This document shows positions 3,628-34,180 of a stretch of 39,293 nt of DNA, one piece after another. A program made the position numbers and the translations under genes. Each line of letters opens with the position of its first letter. The first letter of the stretch is position 1. The notes beneath the pieces were generated by a model. The model was not told the origin of the DNA. It made no database searches and saw only the letters and a program-made list of their open reading frames with translations. This stretch comes from a virus, in the IMG/VR virus record IMGVR_UViG_3300006086_000002; one strand, written 5' to 3'.

Positions 3628-4236
3628 ATGCCAGCAATCCAAGGCGCAGTAGGCATCCAGAACAACCCCGATTCAAGCAATCTAGTAACTACTCGCATGG
3701 GGAAGCAGGGGGATTTGCTTGCCAGTGAACTCCATGCAAGGTATTACGAGCAGACCTATCGGGGAAATATGTTTTCCCTTTGCACTCAAGGCACGGCAGT
3801 AACTACGACTGCTGCCCTTGCGACAACCTGGACAGGTTTGGGTTTTGCGAATCCAGTTGGTTCTGGCGTTAATGCCGTTCTTAATAAATTCGGTTGCACG
3901 CAATTTGCAGTGGGGGCCGCAGCAACTATCGGCGTGATGGGCGGTGTTGGAACATTTACTTCCAGCCTGACGCCGCAAAATCGCGTTATCGGTGGCGGAC
4001 AGGCATCGAAGATGAATGGCTCTGCGAGCGCAACCATTTCGACTCCATTGCTTATCGCGTCTTTTGGTTCCGTGGGCTCCGCCGCGACTACGGCATACGC
4101 ATTGGAAAACGGAATCTACGTTGATTTGGAGGGAACGATAATTATCCCTCCCGGATCATTCATTGTTAGTTATACCTCTATTGCCACTACTACTGCATTG
4201 CAATTCCATTTTGTTTGGGAAGAGGTTCCCGTCTAA
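3628..4236 (+). CDS. Hypothetical virion structural protein
   Basis: 202-aa ORF with RBS AAGGAAAC upstream. It sits in the tail module. No motif could be assigned with confidence. Confidence 0.7.
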   Translation: MPAIQGAVGIQNNPDSSNLVTTRMGKQGDLLASELHARYYEQTYRGNMFSLCTQGTAVTTTAALATTWTGLGFANPVGSGVNAVLNKFGCTQFAVGAAATIGVMGGVGTFTSSLTPQNRVIGGGQASKMNGSASATISTPLLIASFGSVGSAATTAYALENGIYVDLEGTIIIPPGSFIVSYTSIATTTALQFHFVWEEVPV

Positions 4237-4496
4237 TGTGGGATAGCGGACAAAAGCAGGGGGCGCGGCAAAAGGTTGTCATCAGCCGTCACTGGCATTC
4301 GCCTGAAATCTCCGTCACGGTATCTGCGGAGAAGATCGAGCTTACCTGTGACCTGGAAGACTTCGTTGCCGCGCTGGTGACGGAGATGCCACATCCTCTG
4401 AAGATGTGGAGCAGGAAAAAGCACAGCAACGAAGCCAATGCAGCGATGCTTCGGGCTATTGAGAAAATCAAGGAATCTTCCAGCAAGGTGATGTGA
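4236..4496 (+). CDS. Hypothetical protein (86 aa)
   Basis: ATG at 4236 overlaps the upstream TAA (TAATG). The 4215 start in the ORF track would overlap the previous gene. Confidence 0.55.
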   Translation: MWDSGQKQGARQKVVISRHWHSPEISVTVSAEKIELTCDLEDFVAALVTEMPHPLKMWSRKKHSNEANAAMLRAIEKIKESSSKVM

Positions 4497-17992: not shown

Positions 17993-18471
17993 ACATCTAC
18001 TGGGTCATCGGCAAATATGTGGCTGTTGCTCTTATCGGCGCTGCTGGGTGTTATTGGGCCTACGCTATTCCTCGGGTTGCCGCTCTTAAGGAAGCATCGG
18101 CAAAGGCGGAAGCGGCTGCGGCTAAAGAGCGATCAACATTCCTAGAGGGAGCGAGAAATGAACAGGTCAGACTTCAAGGGCTGGTGGATGCGGCGAACCG
18201 GGCCGCTGACGACGCAAGAATGGCTCGTGATCGTGCTGCTTTCGATCTTGCTGCCGCTAATGCCAGGTTGCGCAACGCAAACAGCACCCTCTCAAATTAC
18301 CTTACAAGACTGCCCGAAGCCGCCAGTTGTCCAGTCTGTGAATCCTCCGCCGCAACCCTCGGGGACGTGGAGCAAAGAATGGCAGACTTTGGTGGACGAT
18401 GCAGCGCAGAGGTTGAAAGGCTTGGAGATTCCGTCCGATACTACGAAGAAGCCTTCGGAGTGAAGAAATGA
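17989..18471 (+). CDS. i-spanin (Rz-like)
   Basis: N-terminal TM (IYWVIGKYVAVALIGAAGCYWAYAI) followed by an Ala/Arg-rich coiled coil. The proposed TTG start at 17989 lies after GGAGGA; GTG at 18019 is an alternative. The upstream part of track ORF 17866.. overlaps the holin. Confidence 0.7.
   Translation: MNIYWVIGKYVAVALIGAAGCYWAYAIPRVAALKEASAKAEAAAAKERSTFLEGARNEQVRLQGLVDAANRAADDARMARDRAAFDLAAANARLRNANSTLSNYLTRLPEAASCPVCESSAATLGDVEQRMADFGGRCSAEVERLGDSVRYYEEAFGVKK
18158..18463 (+). CDS. o-spanin (Rz1-like lipoprotein), fully embedded in the +1 frame of the i-spanin gene
   Basis: RBS GAGGGAG upstream. The signal peptide ends in LLPLMPG|C (a lipobox-like cysteine) and the mature part is proline-rich (CPKPPVVQSVNPPPQPSG). 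Confidence 0.7.
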   Translation: MNRSDFKGWWMRRTGPLTTQEWLVIVLLSILLPLMPGCATQTAPSQITLQDCPKPPVVQSVNPPPQPSGTWSKEWQTLVDDAAQRLKGLEIPSDTTKKPSE

Positions 18472-18923
18472 ATGGTAATCGCCCGCCGAGACCATGGAAA
18501 AAAGAAACTAGGATTAGACATTTATTGCTAGGAAAAATTATCACAGAAAATGGATGTTGGATAAATCATCGCAAACCTCGTGAAGATGGGTATGTATCTA
18601 GAAATGGCTCTTATCAGCATAGGATTTCATATGAACTTTTAGTTGGAGAAATTCCACATGGAAAGCATATAGACCATCTATGTAGAAATAGGGCCTGTTT
18701 CAATCCAGAACATCTTGAGCCTGTTGAGCCTGCGGAGAATCTTCGAAGGGGGTTATCTTCACAATCTTCAAGGATCCGCGCTACGTATAGAACGCATTGT
18801 CCAAACGGACATGAATACACTGATAGTAATAAAGGAGTATGGACTGGCGGTACAAAAAGATGCAAAACATGCCAAAGATACAGGCAGATAAAATATAGGG
18901 CTTCCTTAAGGGCTGCATCATGA
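18468..18923 (+). CDS. HNH homing endonuclease
   Basis: HIDHLCRNRACFNPEHLEPVEPAENLRR is the DHxCxNxxCxNPxHL HNH signature. The segment is visibly more A/T-rich than its flanks. Confidence 0.85.
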   Translation: MNGNRPPRPWKKETRIRHLLLGKIITENGCWINHRKPREDGYVSRNGSYQHRISYELLVGEIPHGKHIDHLCRNRACFNPEHLEPVEPAENLRRGLSSQSSRIRATYRTHCPNGHEYTDSNKGVWTGGTKRCKTCQRYRQIKYRASLRAAS

Positions 18924-20821: not shown

Positions 20822-21243
20822 TACGATCCCTCCTTGCTCTTCAGTGCGCCGACAACTTCCTCGATTGCGGCCTCTAGCTCGTGGACTTGCGGCACAGGAC
20901 AGGTTCCAATATCAACCAAAGCTCCGGATAGCCGCGACGCGAAGATGTGGATATCGTCAACCAGCTTCCTCGCCATCGCCTTCTCGTATTCGACTGCCTT
21001 CGCCTGTAGCACCGCGTTATGCTGCTCTTGCGCGAGCTCGAGAGAGGCGATGCGGGAGCGGAGGGAGGCATTCTCTTGCTCTAGGCGCGCGTAGTTCGCT
21101 TCCACCAACTCGCGTCCGCTCATCATGGATGCTGTTTTGAGCGGTGGCTTCGGGCACGGCCCGCTGTAGCCGTGGAACTTGAACATTTCCTCCCCGAGCG
21201 GCATCGGCTCGCCGCAGAGGTCGCACTTTCCGTATTCGCTCAC
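20821..21243 (-). CDS. Hypothetical protein, N-terminal Cys-pair (zinc-ribbon-like) + coiled coil
   Basis: 140 aa with CDLCGEPMPLGEEMFKFHGYSGPCP followed by heptad-rich LEQENASLRSRIASLELAQEQ. Confidence 0.65.
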   Translation of the reverse strand: MSEYGKCDLCGEPMPLGEEMFKFHGYSGPCPKPPLKTASMMSGRELVEANYARLEQENASLRSRIASLELAQEQHNAVLQAKAVEYEKAMARKLVDDIHIFASRLSGALVDIGTCPVPQVHELEAAIEEVVGALKSKEGS

Positions 21244-22199
21244 TTCGGCGTCTCCTTCGCGGCAAGGGCGGCGCGGGCGATGTCCGCGTTGCTCATTAGG
21301 TTGTCTGCTGGTTGTCGTAGTCCGGCTACGATTTCCAGCGCATATCGAAGCCTGTCCCGCTCGGCCTCTAGCTCACGGCAGCGGGATTCTGCGGCTTCGG
21401 TGCGCTCCAACCATCGGGAAAAGTTGAACTTCTTCTCCAACTCCTCAATCCGCTCCGCCTCGGGGGAGGGGTGGGCTTCTTTGACGGCTTCAAGCGCTTC
21501 CTCAAATTCATCCCAGTAGTCCTGCGGCGCACCTCGCCCCATGCCGTCGGGGAAGTCGTACTCCTCGGCTTCAGAAGAAAGGCGTTCGCAAGCGGCGATT
21601 AACTTCGCCACCGGAGCAGCCTTCGCCTCGGGCTGCGCTGCGGGGACAACACCGGCGCATCCTGAGAACGGAGCGACTCCTGCCGTAGCCATGAACGCAA
21701 CCGATTCTCCGATTGCAGATTGCGAGTTGGGTGGAATGACCGGGCACGAACAGGTGAGAATGTGGCACCCGCTCATTATTCCTGCTTGGCACCGCTTCCA
21801 AACCGCCTCCCCCTGCGCTGCGGGTGGGGGAGGGACGCTGAGTTCTCGGACTTCTCTCCAAGCAGCGCACGAAGCACAGGCAGACTTCGGCTTCATCCCG
21901 CCATAGCAGCAGATCCCAACCGCCTCCCCCTGCACCGCAGGCGCTTCCTCGGCCATCATTGCTCGTATCCTCGTGCGTGCCTGCGCAATATGCTCTCTCA
22001 TCGCCGGGTCCTTCTCAAGTTCTGCCACAAACTCGTCGATCCCGATGGTGTTCGGCAACTCCGCAGGCGCTTCCTCCGGGGTGGAGAGAAACTTCCTCGT
22101 GCCTTCAATCATGGCCTTCCAGTTGGTGCCCCACGTTTCATGCGTGGACTCTTCTGCCGCCACGCACCATGCTTCCAGCAACCTCCGAGCTTCGTTCAT
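21240..22199 (-). CDS. Hypothetical Cys-rich early protein (319 aa)
   Basis: The start is placed at MNEARRLLEAW, after RBS AAGGAG. The longer track ORF (to 22265) overlaps the upstream gene. QGEAV is repeated and there are Cys clusters. Confidence 0.65.
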   Translation of the reverse strand: MNEARRLLEAWCVAAEESTHETWGTNWKAMIEGTRKFLSTPEEAPAELPNTIGIDEFVAELEKDPAMREHIAQARTRIRAMMAEEAPAVQGEAVGICCYGGMKPKSACASCAAWREVRELSVPPPPAAQGEAVWKRCQAGIMSGCHILTCSCPVIPPNSQSAIGESVAFMATAGVAPFSGCAGVVPAAQPEAKAAPVAKLIAACERLSSEAEEYDFPDGMGRGAPQDYWDEFEEALEAVKEAHPSPEAERIEELEKKFNFSRWLERTEAAESRCRELEAERDRLRYALEIVAGLRQPADNLMSNADIARAALAAKETPK

Positions 22200-22495
22200 T
22201 GCGGCTCCTTTCCTGCGATTTCCTCTGCGCGGCGGATGATCGCGGCGGCGCACTGATCCACCCACCCGCGAGCGAACGCAGCGGCGATGCTTTCATTGCC
22301 AGCCGTTTGCTCGTTCTGTGCCTCGCACACCTTAGCCGCCTCACGCATCCCGGCCACGAACGCAGCGCGGCGGATGTCGCAGACCAACTTGTTTACGCCT
22401 GCATCCAGCATCCAGCCTTCCGGCAGCGGCACAATCTCTTCTAGGTTCATTCCTTGCTCCTCATGGATCTCGCAGACGCGCCACGCACGCCTCAT
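22196..22495 (-). CDS. Hypothetical early protein
   Basis: 99 aa from ATG 22495 (ATGA overlap, RBS AAGGAG). ATG 22450 (RBS GAGGAG) is an alternative start. Confidence 0.55.
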   Translation of the reverse strand: MRRAWRVCEIHEEQGMNLEEIVPLPEGWMLDAGVNKLVCDIRRAAFVAGMREAAKVCEAQNEQTAGNESIAAAFARGWVDQCAAAIIRRAEEIAGKEPQ

Positions 22496-24860: not shown

Positions 24861-25519
24861 GCCTGCCTCGCTGCTTTGAGTGCCGCGCGGACCTTGCTGT
24901 GAGGCCCTAGAAGGCCCCATAGAGCGACTTTCTGGTCGGAGTCGAGGTTCTGTGCGTCCATGAACTTCAGAGCGTCCTGGATCTTCCCTTCCTCGCACAG
25001 AGCCACGATATCGGCAGCCATGGCGCGCAGGAACTCCATTTCCTCGGCAGGGACTTCTGCGGCAGCGGCGCGGACCGGGGTAATCGTCGGAACAACCTCG
25101 TGCGTCTGGTTTTCCGTGTCGTTGTCTCCCTCGGTCGGGATAACGAAGGTCTGGAAGGCGAAATTCTTGTAGGCCGAGGACATGGCCTTGTTGATAGCCT
25201 TGTCTCCCCGGTCCATCGCCTCGCCCATGACCGTCACGACTGCATGAGAATCGTCCTCGATGCAGTGAAGGTGATACCGCATGGAGATTCGGCAATAGAA
25301 CACCGCGCCGCCCTTCGCGGTTTGCCGTTCGCTGATCTCCTGTCCGAATAATTCCGGCAGGATTACCAGGCCATTCTTGGCAATGATCGGGGCCAGGGCG
25401 TTGTACACGTCATCGATGCCCCGGAACTTGTAGTTGTCGAACTTGTTTTCTTGCGCCTTGCTGATGCCAATTTTGGCGATATCAGCCTGGACCGCATTGA
25501 TAGCCTTGAATACTTTCAT
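24857..25519 (-). CDS. erf: ERF-family single-strand annealing recombinase
   Basis: QENKFDNYKFRGIDDVYNALAPIIAKNGL parallels P22 Erf NSFGKYKYRSCEDILEGVKPLLKGL. DKAINKAMSSAYKNFAFQTFVIPTEGDNDTE parallels SQVTGATSSYARKYCLNGLFGIDDAKDADTE. Confidence 0.8.
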   Translation of the reverse strand: MKVFKAINAVQADIAKIGISKAQENKFDNYKFRGIDDVYNALAPIIAKNGLVILPELFGQEISERQTAKGGAVFYCRISMRYHLHCIEDDSHAVVTVMGEAMDRGDKAINKAMSSAYKNFAFQTFVIPTEGDNDTENQTHEVVPTITPVRAAAAEVPAEEMEFLRAMAADIVALCEEGKIQDALKFMDAQNLDSDQKVALWGLLGPHSKVRAALKAARQA

Positions 25520-25770
25520 AGTCCCATGTCCTCGATCATTCGTTCGATGGAATCGTCATCCCACTTCTTGATATCCGTGGGCATCCAGTCTGTGTATCCC
25601 TTGGGACGGATCATCACTTCCCGGACCTCGACCTCGTTCGGGTCTGCGGGAGCCCAGCCATCGGGAGGGCCGCCAGTGATCGCGGGGGATCCGGGAGTGA
25701 AATCGAACGTCACCTGAAGCTCGATGTCATCCCAGAGGAAGGTTTCGACGCAGCCGTATTCCGTCCTCAT
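25516..25770 (-). CDS. Hypothetical early protein
   Basis: 84-aa acidic ORF with ATGA overlaps on both sides. Confidence 0.6.
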   Translation of the reverse strand: MRTEYGCVETFLWDDIELQVTFDFTPGSPAITGGPPDGWAPADPNEVEVREVMIRPKGYTDWMPTDIKKWDDDSIERMIEDMGL

Positions 25771-26009
25771 TGCTGCACCTTGGCGAGAGCGGCATTCGCC
25801 ATCGAAACGGCTGCGGCAGCATCAGCGCGAAGCAGGTAGCAGGCCATGGGATTTTCCGATCCGGTGAATTGAACCGGTTGAGTAAGGGCCGCAGTCATAG
25901 CCTTGATGGCTACAAGAAGTTCGTTGCGGTCCTGCTTTGCTTTCTCAAAATCAAATGCGATGCCCGGGTATCCTTCGCAACCGCATTGCGGGGTGTGCTG
26001 AGTGGTCAT
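25767..26009 (-). CDS. Hypothetical early protein (80 aa)
   Basis: The start is placed at MTTQHTPQCG, after RBS AGGAGAA. The longer track ORF would run into the rsr stop and the internal promoter. Confidence 0.55.
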   Translation of the reverse strand: MTTQHTPQCGCEGYPGIAFDFEKAKQDRNELLVAIKAMTAALTQPVQFTGSENPMACYLLRADAAAAVSMANAALAKVQQ

Positions 26010-26052
26010 TTCGTTCTCCTGTCTATGTTGCATGAGGGGTGGTACGGGACGA

Positions 26053-26081
26053 ACAGTAGCCCGTCTATTGACAGTTGTCAA
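26053..26081 (-). promoter_or_regulatory. Sigma70-type promoter with palindromic -35/operator (TTGACAACTGTCAA-N9-TACTGT), leftward, overlapping the last codons of rsr
   Basis: The minus strand reads TTGACA (26081-26076), a 17-nt spacer, TACTGT (26058-26053), then TCGTCC. These are the same core elements as the 27571 promoter. Confidence 0.55.
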
Positions 26082-27381
26082 GCTCTAATTGCCGGATATA
26101 TTCCACCACCGATTCCGACCATCCGTCGATCTTGTTCCATGCTCCGTATCCGACTCCGTTCTCGTAAGCTGCGACATTGATGATGTAGCCTTTCCCCTTG
26201 GGGTTCGGGATCCGGTCTGCGCTTTGTTCGTCGGTAATGACGATCAGGCGCTCGCAGCCTGGATAGACAGAGTAGACGGCATGGATGGCATTCCCGAGGC
26301 GAGTCCCGCCAAATGGCATGCATTGTTCCAGAAGGTGCTTGAGTCCAAATCCCCTGCGGGGCGCAAGCTCTCCGCATTGTTCGCTGAAAGCAAAAACTCG
26401 CACCTTTTCTGCCGTTTCTCGCAGGATCATCGCAAGACCGCAGGCAGCATCGAAACGGGTGATTTCGCTCCTGCCGCTTACGCCACTATTCATGCTGCCG
26501 CTGTGATCCACCAGAAGCGCGGTTTTCCCCGGAAGCTTGGGCAGTTCCTGCATGCACTTGAACATGGTTTGTTCCAGCGCGTCTTCAAGGCGAGGCGCAT
26601 GGCGAGCAGCGGAAATGAACCGGAAAGGCAGTACGCGCTCCACGTTCACAGTCGCCAAAGCTTCGCGGATCTTATCCTCCGAAACACCGGATTCAATCAT
26701 GTTTCGCAGGTTGCGAAGCAATGCCAAAGCGCCAAGCTTCTTTTCGTCTAGCAGGCGCTCGAAAGTCTCCTTTTTGTCCGCGCCACCAGAAAGCGCAACC
26801 TCCCAGGTGTCGGGAGTCTGCAAGGTGTTCTCTGCAAGTTTCTTGAACAATGTCGCCTGTTCCTCGTTTGCGGGCTTTGCGTGGGATAAAAACAACACAT
26901 CCCGAAGCTTTACCGCTCCATCCCGGTTGTACTTGGCAAGGGAATATTCGTTGAATTTCTTCAGGGCGCGAGCAAGACCAATCTTCAATTGCGCAGGCAA
27001 AGGCGCGTCCTTCTTCTCCTTCCAGTAAAGTGAAAGGAGTTCCCCGAGTTCGTCCGGGCGCTGGATAACTTCGGCAATCAAATCGCCCATCTGACGGCCC
27101 TTATGGGTCCGTAGAGCCTCCCGAACCAGCAGGAGGGGCACATGCCGCATATTCCCCTTGCCGCGAGCTTCTAGGGCGATTTGAGCGATCTTCGGAAAAG
27201 GAACTTGGCGGCACAGATCGGCAATACGCTTGCCGATTTCCTGTCCATCTTCGTAGAAGGAGTCTTCCCACAGCATGCAGCACATGACGCTGCGGCGAAG
27301 AGCCTGTTCCGCGTTCATGCGGGACGCGGTAGCTCCTTCGTGGGTTTTTTCGGTGAATTTGATTGCGGTGTTGGTGCGCAC
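26065..27381 (-). CDS. rsr: Ro60/Rsr ortholog (TROVE domain + vWA/MIDAS domain RNA-binding protein)
   Basis: Collinear matches to human Ro60: [23 protein letters not shown] vs [34 protein letters not shown] vs [19 protein letters not shown] vs [19 protein letters not shown] vs LLAVDVSASMN; FGGTRLG vs [16 protein letters not shown] vs FIVFTDNET. The start is placed at GTG 27381 after GGAGG. The track start TTG 27414 has no RBS and lies inside the structured leader. Confidence 0.9.
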   Translation of the reverse strand: [438 protein letters not shown]

Positions 27382-27400
27382 ATTACCTCCGTTGGTTGAG

Positions 27401-27547
27401 GCTTGGTGCGGCAATGGGGGAACGTACGCTTAACAGGGATTCTTCTCCCAATGAGGAACCTGTCAGCTACACCACCCACGAAGACTTGCCGGAACAAACG
27501 GTTAAGGGCTGTTCATTTAGCAGATGAAACCCTTACCTTCACCAAGC
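27401..27547 (-). ncRNA. Highly structured 5' leader of rsr; candidate Y-RNA-like / Ro60-binding element
   Basis: A hand fold pairs 20 consecutive nt (27401-27420) with three collinear segments. The pairs are 27401-08/27540-47 (8 bp), 27409-14/27486-91 (6 bp) and 27415-20/27472-78 (6 bp with one bulge). Next come 27424-37/27459-70 (12 bp, two 1-nt bulges), an apical stem 27440-47/27453-58 with a 5-nt loop, and a side hairpin 27503-35. Two pairs are G.U only on the minus-strand RNA. Confidence 0.5.
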
Positions 27548-27555
27548 ACAGGCGA

Positions 27556-27584
27556 AGAGTAACTAGAGAATTGACAACTGTCAA
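27556..27584 (-). promoter_or_regulatory. Leftward early promoter (drives the rsr leader): TTGACA-17-TACTCT
   Basis: The minus strand reads TTGACA (27584-27579), spacer gttgtcaattctctagt and TACTCT (27561-27556). The predicted +1 near 27549 coincides with the 5' strand of the leader's closing helix. Confidence 0.55.
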
Positions 27585-27599
27585 GAACTATTTTACTAT
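27571..27599 (+). promoter_or_regulatory. Rightward early promoter: TTGACA-17-TACTAT, with the -35 inside the palindrome TTGACAACTGTCAA
   Basis: Consensus -35 at 27571-27576, an exact 17-nt spacer and -10 TACTAT at 27594-27599. The ATG at 27606 sits at the expected +1, implying a leaderless mRNA. Confidence 0.6.
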
Positions 27600-27605
27600 T
27601 CGTCC

Positions 27606-27761
27606 ATGGAAAAATCAGCCGTTGTACGCAAGCGACAGATGACCCGGTTACGCAAGGTGGGCGTGTCGGATGCTTTCATCGCCCGCAAGTTCGGAATCAG
27701 CCGGGAGCGGGTGGGGCAGATATTGGGGCGCAGAGGGAAGGGGAAAGAATGTTGCTCATAG
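27606..27761 (+). CDS. Small helix-turn-helix protein (51 aa), candidate early regulator
   Basis: Product MEKSAVVRKRQMTRLRKVGVSDAFIARKFGISRERVGQILGRRGKGKECCS. FGISRERVGQIL resembles HTH recognition helices such as sigma region 4.2 (GVSRERVRQI). It is below the ORF-track cutoff. Confidence 0.55.
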   Translation: MEKSAVVRKRQMTRLRKVGVSDAFIARKFGISRERVGQILGRRGKGKECCS

Positions 27762-27922
27762 ACAAGCTTATCGTTACTTGGGCTGTGTTGTTTTTCGTCA
27801 TTTGTGGATGCGGCATGGCATTTTCCGATCAACCAAAATATTCCAGGATCATTGTCAGGACGGCAGCTCTTTGGGTTGCGGTGTTTTTGTTTTTTATTCT
27901 TTTTGATGTTTGGAGCAAATGA
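27749..27922 (+). CDS. Small membrane protein (57 aa, 2 TM)
   Basis: RBS AAGGGGA upstream. Product MLLIDKLIVTWAVLFFVICGCGMAFSDQPKYSRIIVRTAALWVAVFLFFILFDVWSK. There is an ATGA overlap with the next gene. Confidence 0.5.
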   Translation: MLLIDKLIVTWAVLFFVICGCGMAFSDQPKYSRIIVRTAALWVAVFLFFILFDVWSK

Positions 27923-28110
27923 GCAGAGAGATTCCAGCAGCCGTTAGGACGCGTCTACAGGCCGTCCAAGCCTCGCCAGGCTATGCGGGTGGGGATGCAT
28001 GGGCTAGGAGGCTGCAAGAGGCCCACAGGGCCGGTAAACCGCTCTACGCCATCCAGATCGAGCTATACCGCAAGGCTTTGGGGATTTCGTCCGATAGATG
28101 GGAGTACTAG
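27919..28110 (+). CDS. Hypothetical early protein (63 aa)
   Basis: The ATG at 27919 is coupled (ATGA) to the upstream ORF. The track start at 27910 is TTG. Confidence 0.55.
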   Translation: MSREIPAAVRTRLQAVQASPGYAGGDAWARRLQEAHRAGKPLYAIQIELYRKALGISSDRWEY

Positions 28111-28284
28111 CCATGTTGTATTTTTACATCATCTACTTGCATGTGTTTTACCAGCCTGCATACCATGAGCAGGTGGTTCCTGCTGTGAATAATTACAGAG
28201 CGGTAGCGCACAGACCGAGCCATGGGATGTTGTTACTGTCACGCTGACCCTGGCATCCGTCCGGGGCATTTGACGGAGGTTGTG

Positions 28285-28452
28285 ATGGCTAACCTGAAGA
28301 CTGCAACACCTATGCGCATGCGCTTTCACTGGAAACGGGCTAACGAGTGCATCAAGGACTTGCAGGACAAGCGCGCCAGGATCGATGATGCGCTGCGGCA
28401 GTTGATTCCACTAGTGGCGGATAAGAACAACGGAAAAGGCTTGACAGGGTAA
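28285..28452 (+). CDS. Hypothetical early protein (55 aa)
   Basis: RBS GGAGG lies 6 nt upstream of ATG 28285. The upstream part of track ORF 28222.. has no RBS. Confidence 0.55.
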   Translation: MANLKTATPMRMRFHWKRANECIKDLQDKRARIDDALRQLIPLVADKNNGKGLTG

Positions 28453-28469
28453 ATAAGGGAGATAAAATC

Positions 28470-28559
28470 ATGGGGCAGGCTTTGGCGAGCTTGTGGACGT
28501 TAACTGGAGAGTTTGCGGATGTATTATTGTTTTTACGCATGCGGGATAGGATCGGGTAA
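28470..28559 (+). CDS. Possible micro-ORF (29 aa)
   Basis: RBS AAGGGAG lies upstream of the ATG. Product MGQALASLWTLTGEFADVLLFLRMRDRIG. The stop sits in the loop of a hairpin. It may instead be part of a noncoding RNA. Confidence 0.25.
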   Translation: MGQALASLWTLTGEFADVLLFLRMRDRIG

Positions 28560-28620
28560 CCGATCTGCCTCCCTCTCCAGGCAGCGCCACCTGCCCGCAG
28601 TCGTAAGCACGATGAGATAG

Positions 28621-28655
28621 CCCCGGGGGTCGAAAGATCCTCGGGGTATTTTTTT
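28621..28655 (+). terminator. Rho-independent terminator (11-bp stem, GAAA tetraloop, T7 tract)
   Basis: CCCCGGGGGTC-GAAA-GATCCTCGGGG (9 Watson-Crick + 2 G.U pairs) is followed by TATTTTTTT at 28647-28655. It is unidirectional, with no T tract on the other strand. Confidence 0.8.
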
Positions 28656-28656
28656 G

Positions 28657-28907
28657 CCTGCCGGACTCCGCTCGTTAGCAAGGGCACAATCGGCCGCGCG
28701 GAAGAACAGAGCTGGCACCGTCCTAGGCCAGTAAATATCGGGATTGCGCTTCTCACGCGGCGCACGCTCTTAAAGCCTACCAGGGCACGGGCGGCAAAAC
28801 AGGTATCGAAAGCTCCAATGGTCGGGCATTCTCCCGGACAGCGTCTCATCCCACGATACGGGGTACCTGACAATCTAGAGTTCTGGGTTTTGCTAGCACC
28901 GGGCAGG
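28657..28907 (+). other. ORF-free region with long-range closing helices; candidate structured RNA of unknown function
   Basis: cctgccgg (28657-64) pairs with ccgGgcagg (28899-907, one bulged G). gttagcaa(gg) (28674-83) pairs with (tt)ttgctagc (28888-97). Internal helices include 28693-98/28756-61, 28803-08/28854-59 and hairpin 28821-39. There is no plausible ORF on either strand. Confidence 0.3.
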
Positions 28908-28924
28908 AGCACGTGGCGTGATCT

Positions 28925-29134
28925 ATGGAGAGAAAAATGAAGAAAATGACTTCTGAGCAATGGTGGAGCATCTATGGAAAGCGCAGGGAAGAGGACGAAG
29001 CTGCAAGGAAAGCAAGTCTCTCGGCAGAATGCAGGATCGCTAAAGACGACGACCCGAGATGGACAAAATGGGAATGGCAAGGTACAAAGTGGTCACGTCG
29101 AAACATTGCACCAGAAGAAAATACGGCTTTCTAG
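28925..29134 (+). CDS. Hypothetical protein (Trp/Lys/Glu-rich)
   Basis: 69-aa ORF. The alternative start ATG 28937 has a better RBS (GGAGA). The segment is A/T-rich. Confidence 0.55.
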   Translation: MERKMKKMTSEQWWSIYGKRREEDEAARKASLSAECRIAKDDDPRWTKWEWQGTKWSRRNIAPEENTAF

Positions 29135-29176
29135 TCTGCAAAAAGTAGCAAGCAAACCCTACTGGCAAAAACTAAA

Positions 29177-29548
29177 ATGGAATCATTCCAAGAATATCAA
29201 TCTCGAAATATCCCTCCTGCAAAACGAAATAAATACGGCAATGTCCCGACAGACGGATACCACAGCAAGCGAGAAGCCGCCAGGGCAGCAGAACTGAAAC
29301 TGCTACTCAAAGCCGGGAAGATCAAGGATCTGAAGGAGCAGGTAAAGCACGAACTGATACCTGCGCAATACGACGAGAACGGACGATGTGTAGAAAGGAG
29401 CGTTTCATACATATCGGACTTCGAGTACTTGGACGATAAGGGCGTGAAACACTGGGAAGATGTGAAAGGTTTTAAGGAAAGCAAGACTTGGATTTTGAAG
29501 CGCAAATTGATGCTCTGGATCCACGGGATTAGAGTCAAAGAAGTATGA
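29177..29548 (+). CDS. DUF1064-family protein (PD-(D/E)XK-type nuclease / resolvase-like)
   Basis: AKRNKYGNVPTDGYHSKREAARAAELKLLLKAGKIKDLKEQVKHEL...YISDFEYLDDKGVKHWEDVKGFKESKTWILKRKL fits the DUF1064 pattern (NKY.N..v..dG..fdSk.Ea....L......G.I.dl..Q..f.L...Y.aDF...d....EDvKG......K.kl). Confidence 0.7.
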   Translation: MESFQEYQSRNIPPAKRNKYGNVPTDGYHSKREAARAAELKLLLKAGKIKDLKEQVKHELIPAQYDENGRCVERSVSYISDFEYLDDKGVKHWEDVKGFKESKTWILKRKLMLWIHGIRVKEV

Positions 29549-29838
29549 GCAACTTCCGAGACAAGAAGATTCTAGAGAATGCCAGGCTGCTTCCATGCCA
29601 AATATGCGGAAAGCAAGACGGTACTGTTTGCGCGGCTCATAGCAACCAACAGAGGGATGGCAAAGGAATGGGAATAAAGGCCCACGACTATCGCATTGCT
29701 TCCCTGTGTTTTGAGTGCCATTCATCTATAGATCAAGGCTCTCAGCACCTTAAAAAGAAGCGTCAGGAAATGTGGGACGAGGCGCATAGAAAAACGATTG
29801 GGGAAATGATTGAGAGAGGGCTACTTAGTGCTGTTTGA
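29545..29838 (+). CDS. YbcO-like (DUF1364) putative nuclease
   Basis: 97 aa. PCQICGKQDGTVCAAHSN....GKGMGIKAHDYRIASLCFECHSSIDQG has the same Cys/His architecture and length as prophage YbcO (CQVRIPGVCNGNPETSVLAH...GTGTKPPDLIATIACSACHDEID). Confidence 0.6.
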   Translation: MSNFRDKKILENARLLPCQICGKQDGTVCAAHSNQQRDGKGMGIKAHDYRIASLCFECHSSIDQGSQHLKKKRQEMWDEAHRKTIGEMIERGLLSAV

Positions 29839-30298: not shown

Positions 30299-30505
30299 AT
30301 GAAGATTCCTCGCCAGGTTGCCACGAATGCGGATAAGGATCGCCGGTTCATCAACCAGGGATCCGAGATGGCGAATCTCAATATGTACAACCGGTATAAC
30401 GCTGGCAGCTCTTATTTGCCGAGCATGTCTGCGGTGGATATGAAGAAGGCCGAAGCGATCACGAAGTGCACGGAAGTCCCTGCGGTCTACACGAAGGTCT
30501 ATTGA
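30299..30505 (+). CDS. Hypothetical protein (68 aa)
   Basis: This is the C-terminal part of track ORF 30032..30505. The first ~89 codons are an Arg-rich alternate frame of 30010..30297. The start could also be ATG 30278. Confidence 0.45.
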   Translation: MKIPRQVATNADKDRRFINQGSEMANLNMYNRYNAGSSYLPSMSAVDMKKAEAITKCTEVPAVYTKVY

Positions 30506-30810
30506 TGCTGGTTCCCACTGGGGATAGGCTTCTGGTGAGGCCGGATGAGAACATCGAACACGCCAGCGATTTGATTGTGATTGCCCCGAGGGATGGGGAG
30601 ATTGTGGAAAGTCAGAGACAGTTCGGCAGGCGAGGGACCGTGATTGCTACCGGTCCCGGCAAGCGTCTGAAGGACGGTTCCCGCGCTCCGATGAGTACCA
30701 ATGTAGGAGATACGGTGTATTTCGGGGAATTTATCAACCGGGAATACGAGGAAAACGGGGAACGGTTCTTTGTTATCTCTGAAGCAGACGTTACCGGCAT
30801 TGCTATCTGA
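30505..30810 (+). CDS. GroES/Cpn10-family co-chaperonin homolog
   Basis: MLVPTGDRLLVRP....RRGTVIATGPGKRLKDGSRAPMSTNVGDTVYFGE...ENGERFFVISEADVTGI parallels E. coli GroES IRPLHDRVIVKR...[34 protein letters not shown]...DNEEVLIMSESDILAI. There is a TGATG overlap at the start. Confidence 0.8.
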   Translation: MLVPTGDRLLVRPDENIEHASDLIVIAPRDGEIVESQRQFGRRGTVIATGPGKRLKDGSRAPMSTNVGDTVYFGEFINREYEENGERFFVISEADVTGIAI

Positions 30811-33551: not shown

Positions 33552-33711
33552 GGTTGATTTGCTGGGCGAGTTCTACGATGCATGGGTCAAGCTGCATCGG
33601 CGTCGGCATGAGAAGGCTGAACGCGAGGAATTGGAAGGGCTGGCACAGGACTTGCTAGAGGCGCATACTGCGGTGGAAACTTATAGGAAGCGAAATGCCA
33701 GAAAGCACTGA
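33535..33711 (+). CDS. Possible small protein (58 aa)
   Basis: Product MSVAREVDLLGEFYDAWVKLHRRRHEKAEREELEGLAQDLLEAHTAVETYRKRNARKH. It fills the gap between 33551 and 33695 and is below the track cutoff. Confidence 0.4.
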   Translation: MSVAREVDLLGEFYDAWVKLHRRRHEKAEREELEGLAQDLLEAHTAVETYRKRNARKH

Positions 33712-34180
33712 TATCCCGCAGGCGTTAATTGAAATGCTGGACTATGACTCAATCACTGGCGATTTCACATGGAAGAGTGATGGAGCGGTGGCTGGCTCTA
33801 ACGCTGGTCGTGGGTATCTGAAAATTGGTCATCGGGGCAGGAAATACTATTGCCATCGCCTTGCATGGGAGATGACCTACGGCGCGATTCCTGACGGCAT
33901 GTTAATCGACCATATCGACGGGAATAAATCAGACAACAGCATCGCCAATCTGAGGCTTGCTACAAAATCTCAGAATGGATGCAATAGCAAACTGAACAGT
34001 AAGAATAAATGCGGCCTCAAGGGAGTGTCATGGTTTCCTCCAATGAAGGCATGGGCAGTAGAAATTAGGATTGGGGATAAGAGGCTTCGCTTGGGATATT
34101 ATCCGAGCAAATATATGGCCCACAACGCATACCGTTTTGCTGCGGGCATAGTTCATAAGGAATTTGCCCGCCATGTCTGA
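33695..34180 (+). CDS. HNH homing endonuclease with AP2-type DNA-binding domain
   Basis: CHRLAWEMTYGAIPDGMLIDHIDGNKSDNSIANLRLATKSQN is an HNH motif. GLKGVSWFPPMKAWAVEIRIGDKRLRLGYYPSKYMAHNAYRFAA is AP2-like. The segment is A/T-rich and lies between terL and the portal gene. Confidence 0.85.
   Translation: MPESTDIPQALIEMLDYDSITGDFTWKSDGAVAGSNAGRGYLKIGHRGRKYYCHRLAWEMTYGAIPDGMLIDHIDGNKSDNSIANLRLATKSQNGCNSKLNSKNKCGLKGVSWFPPMKAWAVEIRIGDKRLRLGYYPSKYMAHNAYRFAAGIVHKEFARHV

What the first reader, a model, noticed from the sequence alone, without database searches (positions are those of the whole stretch)
26065..27381. Phage-encoded Ro60/Rsr (TROVE + vWA) ortholog as the promoter-proximal gene of the leftward early operon
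The 438-449 aa product aligns collinearly by eye with the hallmark blocks of Ro60. These are [40 protein letters not shown], the MIDAS motif [13 protein letters not shown] and IVITDEQS.

Ro60 is a ring-shaped RNA quality-control protein that acts with Y RNAs. In bacteria, Rsr plus Y RNA tethers PNPase and is linked to the RtcB RNA-repair operon. Ro60 genes in phages have been noted only sporadically and have no known function.

Here the gene is the first one transcribed from a consensus early promoter. It sits in a P22-like podovirus with no other RNA-metabolism genes. This placement suggests a role during takeover, for example handling host-cleaved or misfolded RNAs or countering RNA-targeting defences.
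Basis: partly seen in the sequence, partly recalled or inferred. Interest (0 to 1): 0.85.

Follow-up and report, generated by a model that had tools for sequence, protein, structure and literature searches.

The report
Phage Ro60 gene with Y RNAs

Summary
Window 26065..27381 (-) encodes a 438-aa TROVE + vWA protein: Pfam TROVE 55.6 bits, phrog_850 5e-47, and a full-length match to the crystal structure of Thermus phage phiLo Ro60 (E 2e-22). An AlphaFold model (pLDDT 85) matches only Ro60 rings (TM 0.60-0.72).

The novelty claim does not hold.
- The family has at least 4,170 clusters at 50% identity.
- It occurs in 93 GenBank phage records and has its own PHROG.
- One phage member has a 2025 structure/function paper covering Y-RNA binding and attenuation of host PNPase.

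The 5' leader holds two tandem Y-RNA-like hairpins, 27549..27486 and 27479..27414 (-). A covariance model built without them finds exactly these two in the window (47.5 and 37.2 bits; next best 13.5). Similar units lie near the homologous gene in 32 of 36 metagenomic relatives, always on its strand, with strong covariation.

Unlike most relatives, the window has no tRNA-like (YrlA-type) unit.

The leftward promoter has a consensus -35 but a poor -10. It would start transcription at the first Y unit, so Ro60 is the first protein gene but not the first product.

This is a new member of a known kind. Its role in infection is inferred, not shown.

The parts
26065..27381 (-). Ro60-family protein gene. 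It encodes 438 aa from a GTG start; the stop codon is included in the coordinates.
   Evidence: The ORF was found. The protein is identical to P0001. It hits Pfam TROVE, phrog_850 and PDB phiRo60. The AF2 model and Foldseek search agree.
26551..27381 (-). All-helical HEAT-repeat/TROVE part of the ring, about residues 1-277.
   Evidence: DSSP on the model gives helices H24-277. The best Pfam TROVE stretch covers residues 198-282 of the 449-aa form.
26122..26535 (-). vWA domain, about residues 283-420. Its MIDAS ligands are D292, S294, S296, T360 and D384.
   Evidence: The model shows an alternating beta/alpha pattern over E283-E419. VWA_2 and vWA_Ro60 hit this region. The ligands are invariant in 38 homologues. 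They align with the Ca2+ ligands D322, S324, T391 and D416 of phiRo60.
26071..26112 (-). C-terminal helix (residues 424-437). In phiRo60 the equivalent helix packs back on the N-terminal helix and closes the ring.
   Evidence: The model has helix H424-437. The alignment to phiRo60 runs to residue 445 of the 449-aa form. The role of the helix is described in PMC12135203.
27386..27390 (-). Shine-Dalgarno sequence GGAGG, 4 nt before the GTG start.
   Evidence: Seen in the sequence. GGAGG and the TCAAC just before it are conserved in the alignment with L036 and L038.
27414..27479 (-). Y-RNA-like unit B (66 nt). It has a lower stem GUGGG/CCCAU with a bulged U and a GG:CC pair, the 5' motif GGUGUAG, the 3' motif CGUACGUUCC, an upper stem, and an apical loop UUCCUC...GAAUC.
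   Evidence: It scores 52.8 bits with model R1. The leave-out model R2 gives 37.2 bits, E 2e-8. On its own it folds into the family architecture. The window leader is 76% identical over 85 nt to the leader of L036 and L037.
27486..27549 (-). Y-RNA-like unit A (64 nt). It has the same core (5' motif GGUGAAG, 3' motif CGUUUGUUCC). Its apical hairpin UUCAU/AUGAA carries the 7-nt loop CUGCUAA. It has no tRNA-like domain.
   Evidence: It scores 58.2 bits with model R1. The leave-out model R2 gives 47.5 bits, E 3e-11. Its fold is shown.
27556..27584 (-). Candidate leftward promoter: -35 TTGACA (27584-27579), 17-nt spacer, weak -10 TACTCT (27561-27556). The predicted transcription start is about 27549, the first base of unit A.
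   Evidence: Read from the sequence. It was not reported by the scan because the -10 matches only 3 of 6. The geometry (-35, 17 nt, -10, 6-7 nt, unit start) is the same as in L036, TTGACA-17-TATTGT.
27571..27599 (+). Divergent rightward promoter, TTGACA-17-TACTAT. The two -35 hexamers form the palindrome TTGACAACTGTCAA (27571-27584).
   Evidence: (10 of 12 matches).

Best explanation
The locus is a self-contained phage Ro60-Y RNA module.

One leftward transcript would start at about 27549. It first carries two tandem Y-RNA-like hairpins, unit A (27549..27486) and unit B (27479..27414), and then the mRNA for a 438-aa Ro60-family protein (27381..26065).

Shown here:
- The protein has the Ro60 sequence signature, an intact MIDAS motif, and a predicted closed HEAT-repeat ring capped by a vWA domain.
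- The two RNA units belong to a structurally conserved, strongly covarying RNA family that accompanies this gene, on its strand, across phages and bacteria.
- The long members of that family are diverged YrlA Y RNAs.
- The 5' strand motif GG(C/U)G(A/U)AG corresponds to the published Ro60-recognition motif GNCGAA(N)G.

Inferred, by analogy with M. smegmatis YrlA/YrlB (processed from one precursor upstream of rsr) and with Thermus phage phiLo Ro60-Yrl1/Yrl2:
- The units are cut out of the leader.
- Each is bound by the Ro60 ring on its conserved bulged stem.
- The resulting RNP engages a host 3'-5' exoribonuclease, most likely PNPase, early in infection. This changes which structured RNAs are degraded or spared.

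Both window units lack the tRNA-like effector domain, so the RNP would resemble the phiLo Yrl or YrlB type rather than the YrlA type.
For: Protein:
- TROVE 55.6 bits; phrog_850 5e-47; phiRo60 crystal structure E 2e-22 over the full length.
- AF2 pLDDT 85. Foldseek's top 13 hits are all Ro60/Rsr, TM 0.60-0.72.
- The MIDAS ligands and basic residues K133, R138, K142, K150 and R160 are invariant in 38 homologues.

RNA:
- Every one of 23 seed units folds on its own into the same architecture.
- In the seed alignment 81% of cells pair, with a covariation score of 0.565. Shuffles give 0.169 (0 of 500 reach the observed value) and slid registers give 0.154 or less.
- Over 78 distinct units, 89.5% of cells pair and all 15 pairs show compensatory changes. 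The score is 0.715 against 0.207 for shuffles.
- All 79 matches in 435 kb are on the gene's strand. Of the 70 tallied, 65 lie upstream of the gene and 5 downstream.
- All 49 further matches in 38 bacterial genome loci are on the gene's strand and upstream.
- The leave-out model finds only the two window units in the whole window, with filters off.
- Rfam YrlA matches the long units of relatives at 31-52 bits, E 1e-4 to 4e-9.

Other:
- The promoter geometry is shared with L036.
- No neighbouring protein is conserved with the gene in 80 related loci, so RNA plus gene form the unit.
- Literature: PMC4201824 gives the motif, Y RNAs upstream of rsr processed from one precursor, and 22 phages. PMC12135203 covers phiRo60 binding Yrl1/2 and host PNPase. 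PMC8375218 shows the crAss001 TROVE gene is transcribed 0-10 min after infection.
Against: - There are no expression, processing or binding data for this phage. The host is unknown.
- The -10 element is poor (3 of 6).
- In the context of the whole leader, the minimum-energy fold does not form the lower stem of unit A.
- The window units carry U where the published motif has C (GGUGAAG, GGUGUAG).
- They do not match Rfam YrlA at any threshold.
- The PNPase link rests on in-vitro work with one distant homologue (26% identity). That work used short Yrl RNAs defined by eye, and the window's RNAs lack the tRNA-like domain.
- Only 3 of 8 basic residues mutated in phiRo60 align with basic residues here (K133, R160, K169).
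Confidence: 0.75

Rival explanations
1. The two upstream hairpins are cis-acting leader elements, not released Y RNAs. Newly made Ro60 would bind its own 5' leader and autoregulate translation or mRNA stability. Unit B ends 23 nt before the Shine-Dalgarno sequence.
For: The units lie inside the 5' UTR, immediately before the ribosome-binding site. In most relatives the last unit ends 11-90 nt before the start codon. The window has no terminator or tRNA-like processing signal between the units and the gene.
Against: The same units occur downstream of the gene in 5 cases. They also occur 1-5 kb upstream in L016, L023, L025 and L029, and in arrays of up to six. The long versions are YrlA-like RNAs. 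YrlA RNAs are known to be stable and bound in trans, and in M. smegmatis they are processed from a precursor upstream of rsr (PMC4201824). The two readings do not exclude each other.
Confidence: 0.12
2. The RNP works without PNPase, as a counter-defence or RNA-salvage device. The ring would capture the 3' ends of host-cleaved or misfolded RNAs (for example tRNA fragments made by anticodon nucleases, or rRNA/tRNA damaged during takeover), and the Y RNAs would gate access.
For: The ring with a central cavity is predicted. In animal Ro60 the cavity takes single-stranded 3' ends of misfolded RNAs (PDB 2i91 and 9nep are among the structural matches). The gene sits in an early position and the crAss001 homologue is expressed early. 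Several relatives place the module among tRNA genes.
Against: The window has no RtcB, RNA ligase, tRNA genes or any other repair partner. PADLOC gives no relevant hit. No conserved neighbour points to a specific defence. Nothing here tests it.
Confidence: 0.12
3. The gene is a passenger 'moron' with no role in this phage, or a vWA/MIDAS protein that acts on proteins rather than RNA.
For: The genomic context varies completely among relatives, which is typical of mobile accessory genes.
Against: The ORF is full-length, with about 140 invariant positions across 38 homologues at 63-73% identity, including MIDAS and basic residues. The co-inherited structured RNAs carry compensatory changes, which argues for selection on an RNA-protein unit.
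Confidence: 0.02

Closest known systems
Ro60 of Thermus phage phiLo with Yrl1/Yrl2 (PDB 9KOP, 9L5Y; PMC12135203)
   Same: It is phage-encoded and gives the best sequence match (E 2e-22, full length) and structure match (TM 0.70). The MIDAS ligands and the C-terminal closing helix are the same. Short Y-like hairpins without a tRNA-like domain lie directly upstream of the gene on the same strand.
   Different: Identity is only about 25%. The phiLo protein has 502 aa against 438 here, and phiLo is a 178-kb thermophilic phage against a 39-kb P22-like genome here. The phiLo Yrl RNAs were picked by a CGAA motif and RNAfold. My model gives only a weak hit in phiLo (15.9 bits, downstream of the gene), so the RNAs are not demonstrably homologous. 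PNPase binding is shown for phiLo and not tested here.
Bacterial Rsr with YrlA/YrlB (S. Typhimurium, M. smegmatis; Rfam RF02553; PMC4201824)
   Same: Y RNAs are encoded next to the Ro60 gene on the same strand, with two or more per locus. In M. smegmatis they lie upstream and are processed from one precursor. A 5' G-N-C-G-A-A-G-like motif sits in a bulged stem. A short hairpin type (YrlB) exists alongside YrlA.
   Different: The window protein fails the Rsr equivalog model (22.9 bits against 900). It is about 100 aa shorter than Rsr. The window has no tRNA-like YrlA unit, although the 2014 survey reported at least one per species. There is no rtcBA operon and no RtcR control; the promoter is sigma-70-type.
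D. radiodurans Rsr-Yrn1-PNPase (RYPER) machine
   Same: The fold is the same (2nvo, TM 0.60), and the logic of a Y RNA bound on the outer stem site is presumed to be the same.
   Different: In RYPER the distal, tRNA-like part of the Y RNA tethers PNPase. That part is missing in both window units, so the tethering mechanism cannot simply be transferred.
TROVE protein gp96 of Bacteroides phage crAss001, and PHROG 850 members (Caulobacter CcrColossus gp139, Xanthomonas MET23-P3 and others)
   Same: They belong to the same protein family (38-50% identity, more than 93% coverage). crAss001 gp96 is an early gene. Units of the same RNA family flank the gene in MET23-P3 (70.5 bits), CcrColossus (45 bits) and crAss001 (21 bits).
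   Different: Those phages also carry tRNA-like YrlA-type units or tRNAs nearby. None of their Y RNAs is annotated, and none of these proteins has been studied functionally.

Membership tests
Ro60 / TROVE family (Pfam PF05731 with vWA_Ro60 PF25045) | TROVE domain HMM match above the curated cut-off | tested here: met
   55.6 bits against a cut-off of 23, E 6.8e-15. The precomputed Pfam annotation of P0001 is the same.
Ro60 / TROVE family (Pfam PF05731 with vWA_Ro60 PF25045) | C-terminal vWA domain with the MIDAS motif DxSxS...T...D | tested here: met
   D292-H-S294-G-S296, T360 and D384 are invariant in 38 homologues. They align with the Ca2+ ligands of phiRo60. The HMM scores for VWA_2 (25.6 against 27) and vWA_Ro60 (24.6 against 27.7) are just below cut-off. 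The domain is clear in the model.
Ro60 / TROVE family (Pfam PF05731 with vWA_Ro60 PF25045) | Closed ring of HEAT-like helical repeats capped by the vWA domain | tested here: met
   This is a predicted structure only: pLDDT 85, pTM 0.78. The 13 best PDB matches are Ro60, Rsr and phiRo60 with TM 0.60-0.72 over the whole chain; the next best has TM 0.24 or less.
Ro60 / TROVE family (Pfam PF05731 with vWA_Ro60 PF25045) | Y RNA(s) encoded nearby on the same strand and bound by the protein | tested here: inconclusive
   Two Y-like units lie 33-168 nt upstream on the same strand. Binding itself cannot be tested with these tools.
Bacterial Rsr (NCBIfam NF041674, equivalog) | Full-length match above the equivalog cut-off | tested here: not met
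   22.9 bits against a cut-off of 900, and only residues 273-377 match. The protein is a homologue, not an Rsr equivalog.
PHROG 850 (phage 'RNA-binding protein') | Full-length profile match | tested here: met
   E 5.1e-47, residues 15-441 against profile positions 10-457 of 476.
YrlA Y RNA (Rfam RF02553) | Covariance-model match at or above the gathering score (69 bits) | tested here: not met
   There is no match in the window at any threshold, including a 301-nt sub-search. Relatives' long units reach only 31-52 bits.
YrlA Y RNA (Rfam RF02553) | tRNA-like domain (T arm, closed acceptor stem, D arm) | tested here: not met
   ARAGORN finds nothing. T-arm-like sequences are not in excess in the window, and no T-arm hairpin lies within 900 nt of the gene. 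27 of 31 relatives have one.
YrlA/YrlB-type Y RNA in general (PMC4201824) | 5' motif GNCGAA(N)G in a stem formed by the 5' and 3' ends, next to a Ro60 gene | tested here: inconclusive
   The family consensus is GGCG(A/U)AG, as in the seed alignment. The window units have the variants GGUGAAG and GGUGUAG. The stem, with an invariant bulged U and a GG:CC pair, is supported by covariation.
RYPER-type Ro60-Y RNA-PNPase complex | Physical tethering of PNPase by the Y RNA | not testable with these tools
   The host is unknown. The only support is analogy to phiRo60 and D. radiodurans.

The most novel reading that the evidence does not exclude
The window may represent a minority class of phage Ro60 modules that has dispensed with the tRNA-like YrlA effector domain altogether. 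L008, L009, L013 and L030 are like it. This goes against the 2014 generalisation that every Ro60-bearing genome keeps at least one tRNA-like Y RNA. Such a module would deliver a burst of two 'stem-only' Y RNAs plus Ro60 as the very first product of the early-left operon.

If these minimal RNPs act by a mechanism other than tethering PNPase through a tRNA mimic, they would define a new, compact mode of Y RNA action. One possibility is gating or blocking the ring so that it sequesters a host RNA or nuclease as an anti-defence decoy.

More broadly, the tandem arrays (up to six units) upstream of short Ro60 genes form a large Y RNA clade that Rfam's YrlA threshold does not capture.
Probability: 0.15. 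Interest if true: 0.6.

Novelty: new member of a known kind. Interest (0 to 1): 0.35.

Why it matters
The value is practical rather than conceptual.

A 39-kb P22-like genome carries a minimal, complete Ro60 module: one promoter, two Y-like RNAs of 64-66 nt, and one 438-aa protein. It has no tRNA-like domain, no rtc operon and no other RNA-metabolism genes. That makes it one of the simplest settings in which to ask what a Ro60-Y RNA particle does for a virus.

The covariance model built here shows that this RNA family accompanies the gene in most of the 80 or so related loci examined in phages and bacteria. It is unannotated in the five GenBank phage records inspected and scores below Rfam's YrlA threshold. 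Annotation pipelines therefore probably miss the RNA half of the module.

None of this overturns current understanding. Phage Ro60, adjacent Y RNAs and a PNPase connection are all published.

Tried and rejected
- The window has no Rfam match at gathering or E-value thresholds and no tRNA genes. The only hit, NsiR1-like, is a terminator hairpin.
- Megablast of 25000-29000 against phages found nothing. Distant blastn of 28430-28930 also found nothing. No sequenced phage is close at the DNA level.
- PADLOC gave only a meaningless JetB hit, E 0.006, so there is no link to a known defence system.
- I first suspected that the promoter-plus-terminator element at 28474-28656 (+) was the Y RNA. It folds well (z -5.6) but has none of the family's motifs. 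Neither covariance model hits it. I rejected it as a Y RNA and report it as a separate item.
- I looked for a hidden tRNA-like Y RNA elsewhere in the window with a T-arm pattern and a hairpin regex. There is no excess and nothing in non-coding DNA.
- I looked for conserved protein partners of the gene by tblastn of eight neighbouring small ORFs against 80 related loci. There were none.
- The 449-aa TTG-start form of the ORF is rejected, because its first 11 codons overlap unit B.
- A promoter-like site at 27466..27439 (-) (9 of 12) lies inside unit B and is set aside.
- PHROG searches left 21240-22265 (341 aa) and many small ORFs without a function. No integrase or repressor was recognised, so the phage's lifestyle is undetermined.
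Full report
**1. The observation**

The minus-strand ORF ending at 26065 is real. The mechanical ORF starts at a TTG (27414, 449 aa). The in-frame GTG at 27381 is preceded by GGAGG and gives the 438-aa product. That product is identical to a protein called on a 39,324-bp ENA metagenome contig (P0001).

- Pfam TROVE is significant: 55.6 bits against a cut-off of 23.
- VWA_2 and vWA_Ro60 fall just under their cut-offs.
- PHROG 850 ('RNA-binding protein') matches end to end at 5e-47.
- The best solved relative is the Ro60 of Thermus phage phiLo: 9KOP/9L5Y, E 2e-22, residues 7-445.

An AlphaFold2 model built from 38 homologues has pLDDT 85 and pTM 0.78. It shows about 17 helices, then an alternating beta/alpha vWA domain, then a C-terminal helix. 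Foldseek against the PDB returns Ro60, Rsr and phiRo60 as the 13 best hits (probability 1.00, TM 0.60-0.72). Nothing else exceeds TM 0.24.

The MIDAS ligands D292, S294, S296, T360 and D384 are invariant. They align with the Ca2+ ligands of phiRo60.

**2. How common the protein is**

- tblastn finds the protein in 93 GenBank phage records. These include Caulobacter and Brevundimonas jumbo phages and 43-kb Xanthomonas phages at about 50% identity, crAss001 and relatives at 38%, and Rhizobium, Streptomyces, Vibrio, Gordonia, Thermus and haloarchaeal viruses.
- The word-indexed search hit its ceiling of 8,000 clusters at E <= 1e-10. Dozens of proteins 64-74% identical sit on contigs of 30-60 kb.
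- An exhaustive phmmer scan of 1.84 billion representatives finds 4,170 clusters at 50% identity, 991 of them at E <= 1e-30. Most are 430-490 aa long.
- Copies at 54% identity or less also lie in alphaproteobacterial MAG chromosomes and in Chryseobacterium and Elizabethkingia genomes.
- The NCBIfam Rsr equivalog scores only 22.9 bits against a cut-off of 900. The protein is therefore a member of a distinct short branch of the Ro60 family, not an Rsr ortholog.

The literature already covers the essentials.
- Y RNAs were found next to Ro60 genes in 254 bacteria and 22 phages in 2014 (PMC4201824).
- crAss001's TROVE gene is transcribed 0-10 min after infection (PMC8375218).
- The phiLo protein was crystallised in 2025 and shown to bind two upstream Y-like RNAs. 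It forms complexes with host PNPase that attenuate the nuclease (PMC12135203).

**3.

The source contig's gene calls show nothing between the gene and 28285. blastn of that stretch against the fetched relatives gave one signal. Window 27416-27500 is 76% identical to the DNA just upstream of the TROVE gene in L036 and L037, contigs with an otherwise unrelated gene order.

Aligning the leaders revealed repeated units. One L036 unit matches Rfam YrlA (43.9 bits, E 8e-7). It has a permuted tRNA-like domain with a T arm, a closed acceptor stem and a D arm. Inspecting the 480 nt upstream of 17 further homologues showed the same tandem units everywhere.

Each unit has the following parts:
- a lower stem of 4-6 variable pairs;
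- an invariant bulged U;
- a GG:CC pair;
- an internal loop with 5' YG(A/U)A and 3' G(Y)UUGUU;
- an upper stem of about 8 pairs;
- an apical element, which is either a small hairpin or a whole tRNA-like domain.

The 5' strand reads GGCG(A/U)AG. This is the GNCGAA(N)G motif that Chen et al. proposed as the Rsr recognition site.

**4. Tests of the RNA family**

- All 23 hand-picked short units fold on their own into this architecture.
- On the seed alignment, 81% of cells pair. The covariation score is 0.565, against 0.169 for shuffles (0 of 500 reach it) and 0.154 or less for slid registers.
- A covariance model (R1) found 79 matches in 435 kb of window plus 36 loci, every one on the strand of the TROVE gene.
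- Of the 70 matches tallied (E below about 0.005), 65 lie upstream of the gene and 5 downstream. They fall in 32 of 36 loci.
- On the 78 distinct matches, 89.5% of cells pair and all 15 pairs show compensatory changes. The score is 0.715 against 0.207 for shuffles. That alignment was fitted to the model, so the seed figures are the more conservative.
- A second model (R2) was built without the window, L036 or L037 units. Run over the whole window with filters off, it finds exactly two matches: 27549..27486 (47.5 bits, E 3e-11) and 27479..27414 (37.2 bits, E 2e-8). The next best is 13.5 bits.
- R1 also finds units beside the gene in Xanthomonas phage MET23-P3 (70.5 bits), CcrColossus (45 bits) and crAss001 (21 bits, downstream).
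- R1 finds 49 more units in 38 bacterial genome loci, all upstream on the gene's strand.
- Rfam YrlA hits the long units of every relative tested but one, always below its gathering score (31-52 bits).
- None of these RNAs is annotated in the GenBank records examined.

**5. How the window differs from its relatives**

Both window units are of the short type. No tRNA-like element exists anywhere in the window. By contrast, 27 of 31 relatives have a T-arm hairpin within 900 nt of the gene. L008, L009, L013 and L030 resemble the window.

- Unit A carries an apical hairpin with the 7-nt loop CUGCUAA. This matches the small 'V'-type hairpin seen in other units.
- Unit B carries the loop UUCCUC...GAAUC, shared with L036, L020 and L022. 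Its upper stem ACAGG/CCUGU differs from ACGAG/CUCGU in L036 by two compensatory changes.

**6. Transcription**

The rightward promoter TTGACA-17-TACTAT (27571-27599) is a good match.

The leftward promoter shares the palindrome TTGACAACTGTCAA. It has a consensus -35 (27584-27579), but its -10, TACTCT, matches only 3 of 6. Its geometry is nevertheless identical to that of L036: -35, 17 nt, -10, then 6-7 nt to the first base of the first unit. Several other relatives have sigma-70-like promoters 7-15 nt before their first unit.

The predicted transcript therefore begins with unit A, then unit B, then the Ro60 mRNA. No terminator is predicted on the minus strand before the downstream genes, which include two small ORFs, erf, ssb and an N6/N4 methyltransferase. 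'First protein gene of an early-left operon' is thus reasonable, but 'consensus promoter' is not.

The structural genes are P22-like: portal PF16510, coat PF11651, scaffold and ejection proteins. No other recognisable RNA-metabolism gene is present.

**7. Mechanism**

Shown: a Ro60-fold protein and two members of a Y RNA family are inherited together as the only conserved unit. No neighbouring protein is shared with 80 related loci.

Inferred:
- The units are processed out of the leader, as YrlA and YrlB are in M. smegmatis.
- They are bound by the ring on the bulged stem. Basic residues K133, R160 and K169 align with phiRo60 K141, R169 and R178, whose mutation weakens binding.
- They modulate a host exoribonuclease early in infection, as phiRo60-Yrl does with PNPase in vitro.

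The tRNA-like domain is missing, and in D. radiodurans that domain makes the PNPase contact. The PNPase step is therefore the weakest link. I give the module identity about 0.9 and the PNPase-type mechanism about 0.4.

Rival readings are a cis-autoregulatory leader, a PNPase-independent capture of damaged RNAs as counter-defence, and a functionless passenger gene. They are weighed in the rival explanations section.

**8. Verdict**

The finding is a new member of a known kind, not a rarity. The added value is the pair of unannotated tRNA-less Y-like RNAs, a covariance model for a large Y RNA clade that Rfam does not capture at threshold, and a compact system in which to test what phage Ro60 does.

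Noticed in passing
window 28441-28656 (+): A candidate independent small RNA lies in a 470-nt gene-free gap. It has a near-consensus promoter TTGACA-16-TAAAAT (28441-28468, 11 of 12) and a strong terminator (12-bp stem with a GAAA loop and a U run, 28620-28655). The roughly 180-nt RNA folds with z = -5.6. Neither Y RNA model nor Rfam hits it, apart from a chance NsiR1-like hit on the terminator. It has no homologue in the phage collection or in the fetched loci.
   Followed up: partly
window 27571-27584: The -35 hexamers of the divergent leftward and rightward promoters are the two halves of a perfect 14-bp palindrome, TTGACAACTGTCAA. One dimeric regulator could occupy both. The first rightward ORF (27606-27761, 51 aa) looks like a small HTH protein, though no PHROG hit was found and no cI-like repressor gene was recognised.
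   Followed up: no
window 27382-29177: On the source contig only one 55-aa gene (28285-28452) was called in this 1.8-kb stretch. The small ORFs at 27606-27761, 27749-27922, 27910-28110 and 28925-29134 have no family match and no homologue in 80 related loci. Their coding status is uncertain.
   Followed up: partly
L040 (Caulobacter phage CcrColossus) 1269-2245, upstream of gp139: The 1.3-kb stretch upstream of the TROVE gene holds several Y-like units (R1 up to 45 bits) and two sub-threshold YrlA hits. One of these (1714-1810) overlaps the annotated 'tRNA-Gln' (1679-1746), which may be a tRNA-like Y RNA domain rather than a tRNA.
   Followed up: no
L041 (Bacteroides phage crAss001) 3851-4755, downstream of gp96: The 900-nt unannotated gap after the TROVE gene contains a weak Y-like unit (3949-4028, 21 bits). 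It also contains a 144-nt match to the Rfam tRNA model (4124-4267, 46.6 bits) that is not annotated as a tRNA. crAss001 may therefore keep its Y RNAs downstream of the gene.
   Followed up: no
L023 4469-5965; L038 991-1404; L022 5117-5940: Some relatives carry long tandem arrays of Y-like units upstream of the gene: six in L023 and four each in L038 and L022. Short and tRNA-like units are mixed.
   Followed up: partly
window 30466-30810 (+); 29545-29838, 33695-34180 and 18468-18923 (+): The phage encodes a GroES/Cpn10-like co-chaperonin (phrog_3188, PF00166). It also has three HNH endonuclease genes, one of them between the terminase and portal genes.
   Followed up: no
window 21240-22265 (-): The last large gene of the leftward block is 341 aa (319 aa as called on the contig). 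It has no PHROG hit and no precomputed Pfam hit. No integrase was recognised anywhere, so it is open whether the phage is temperate.
   Followed up: no
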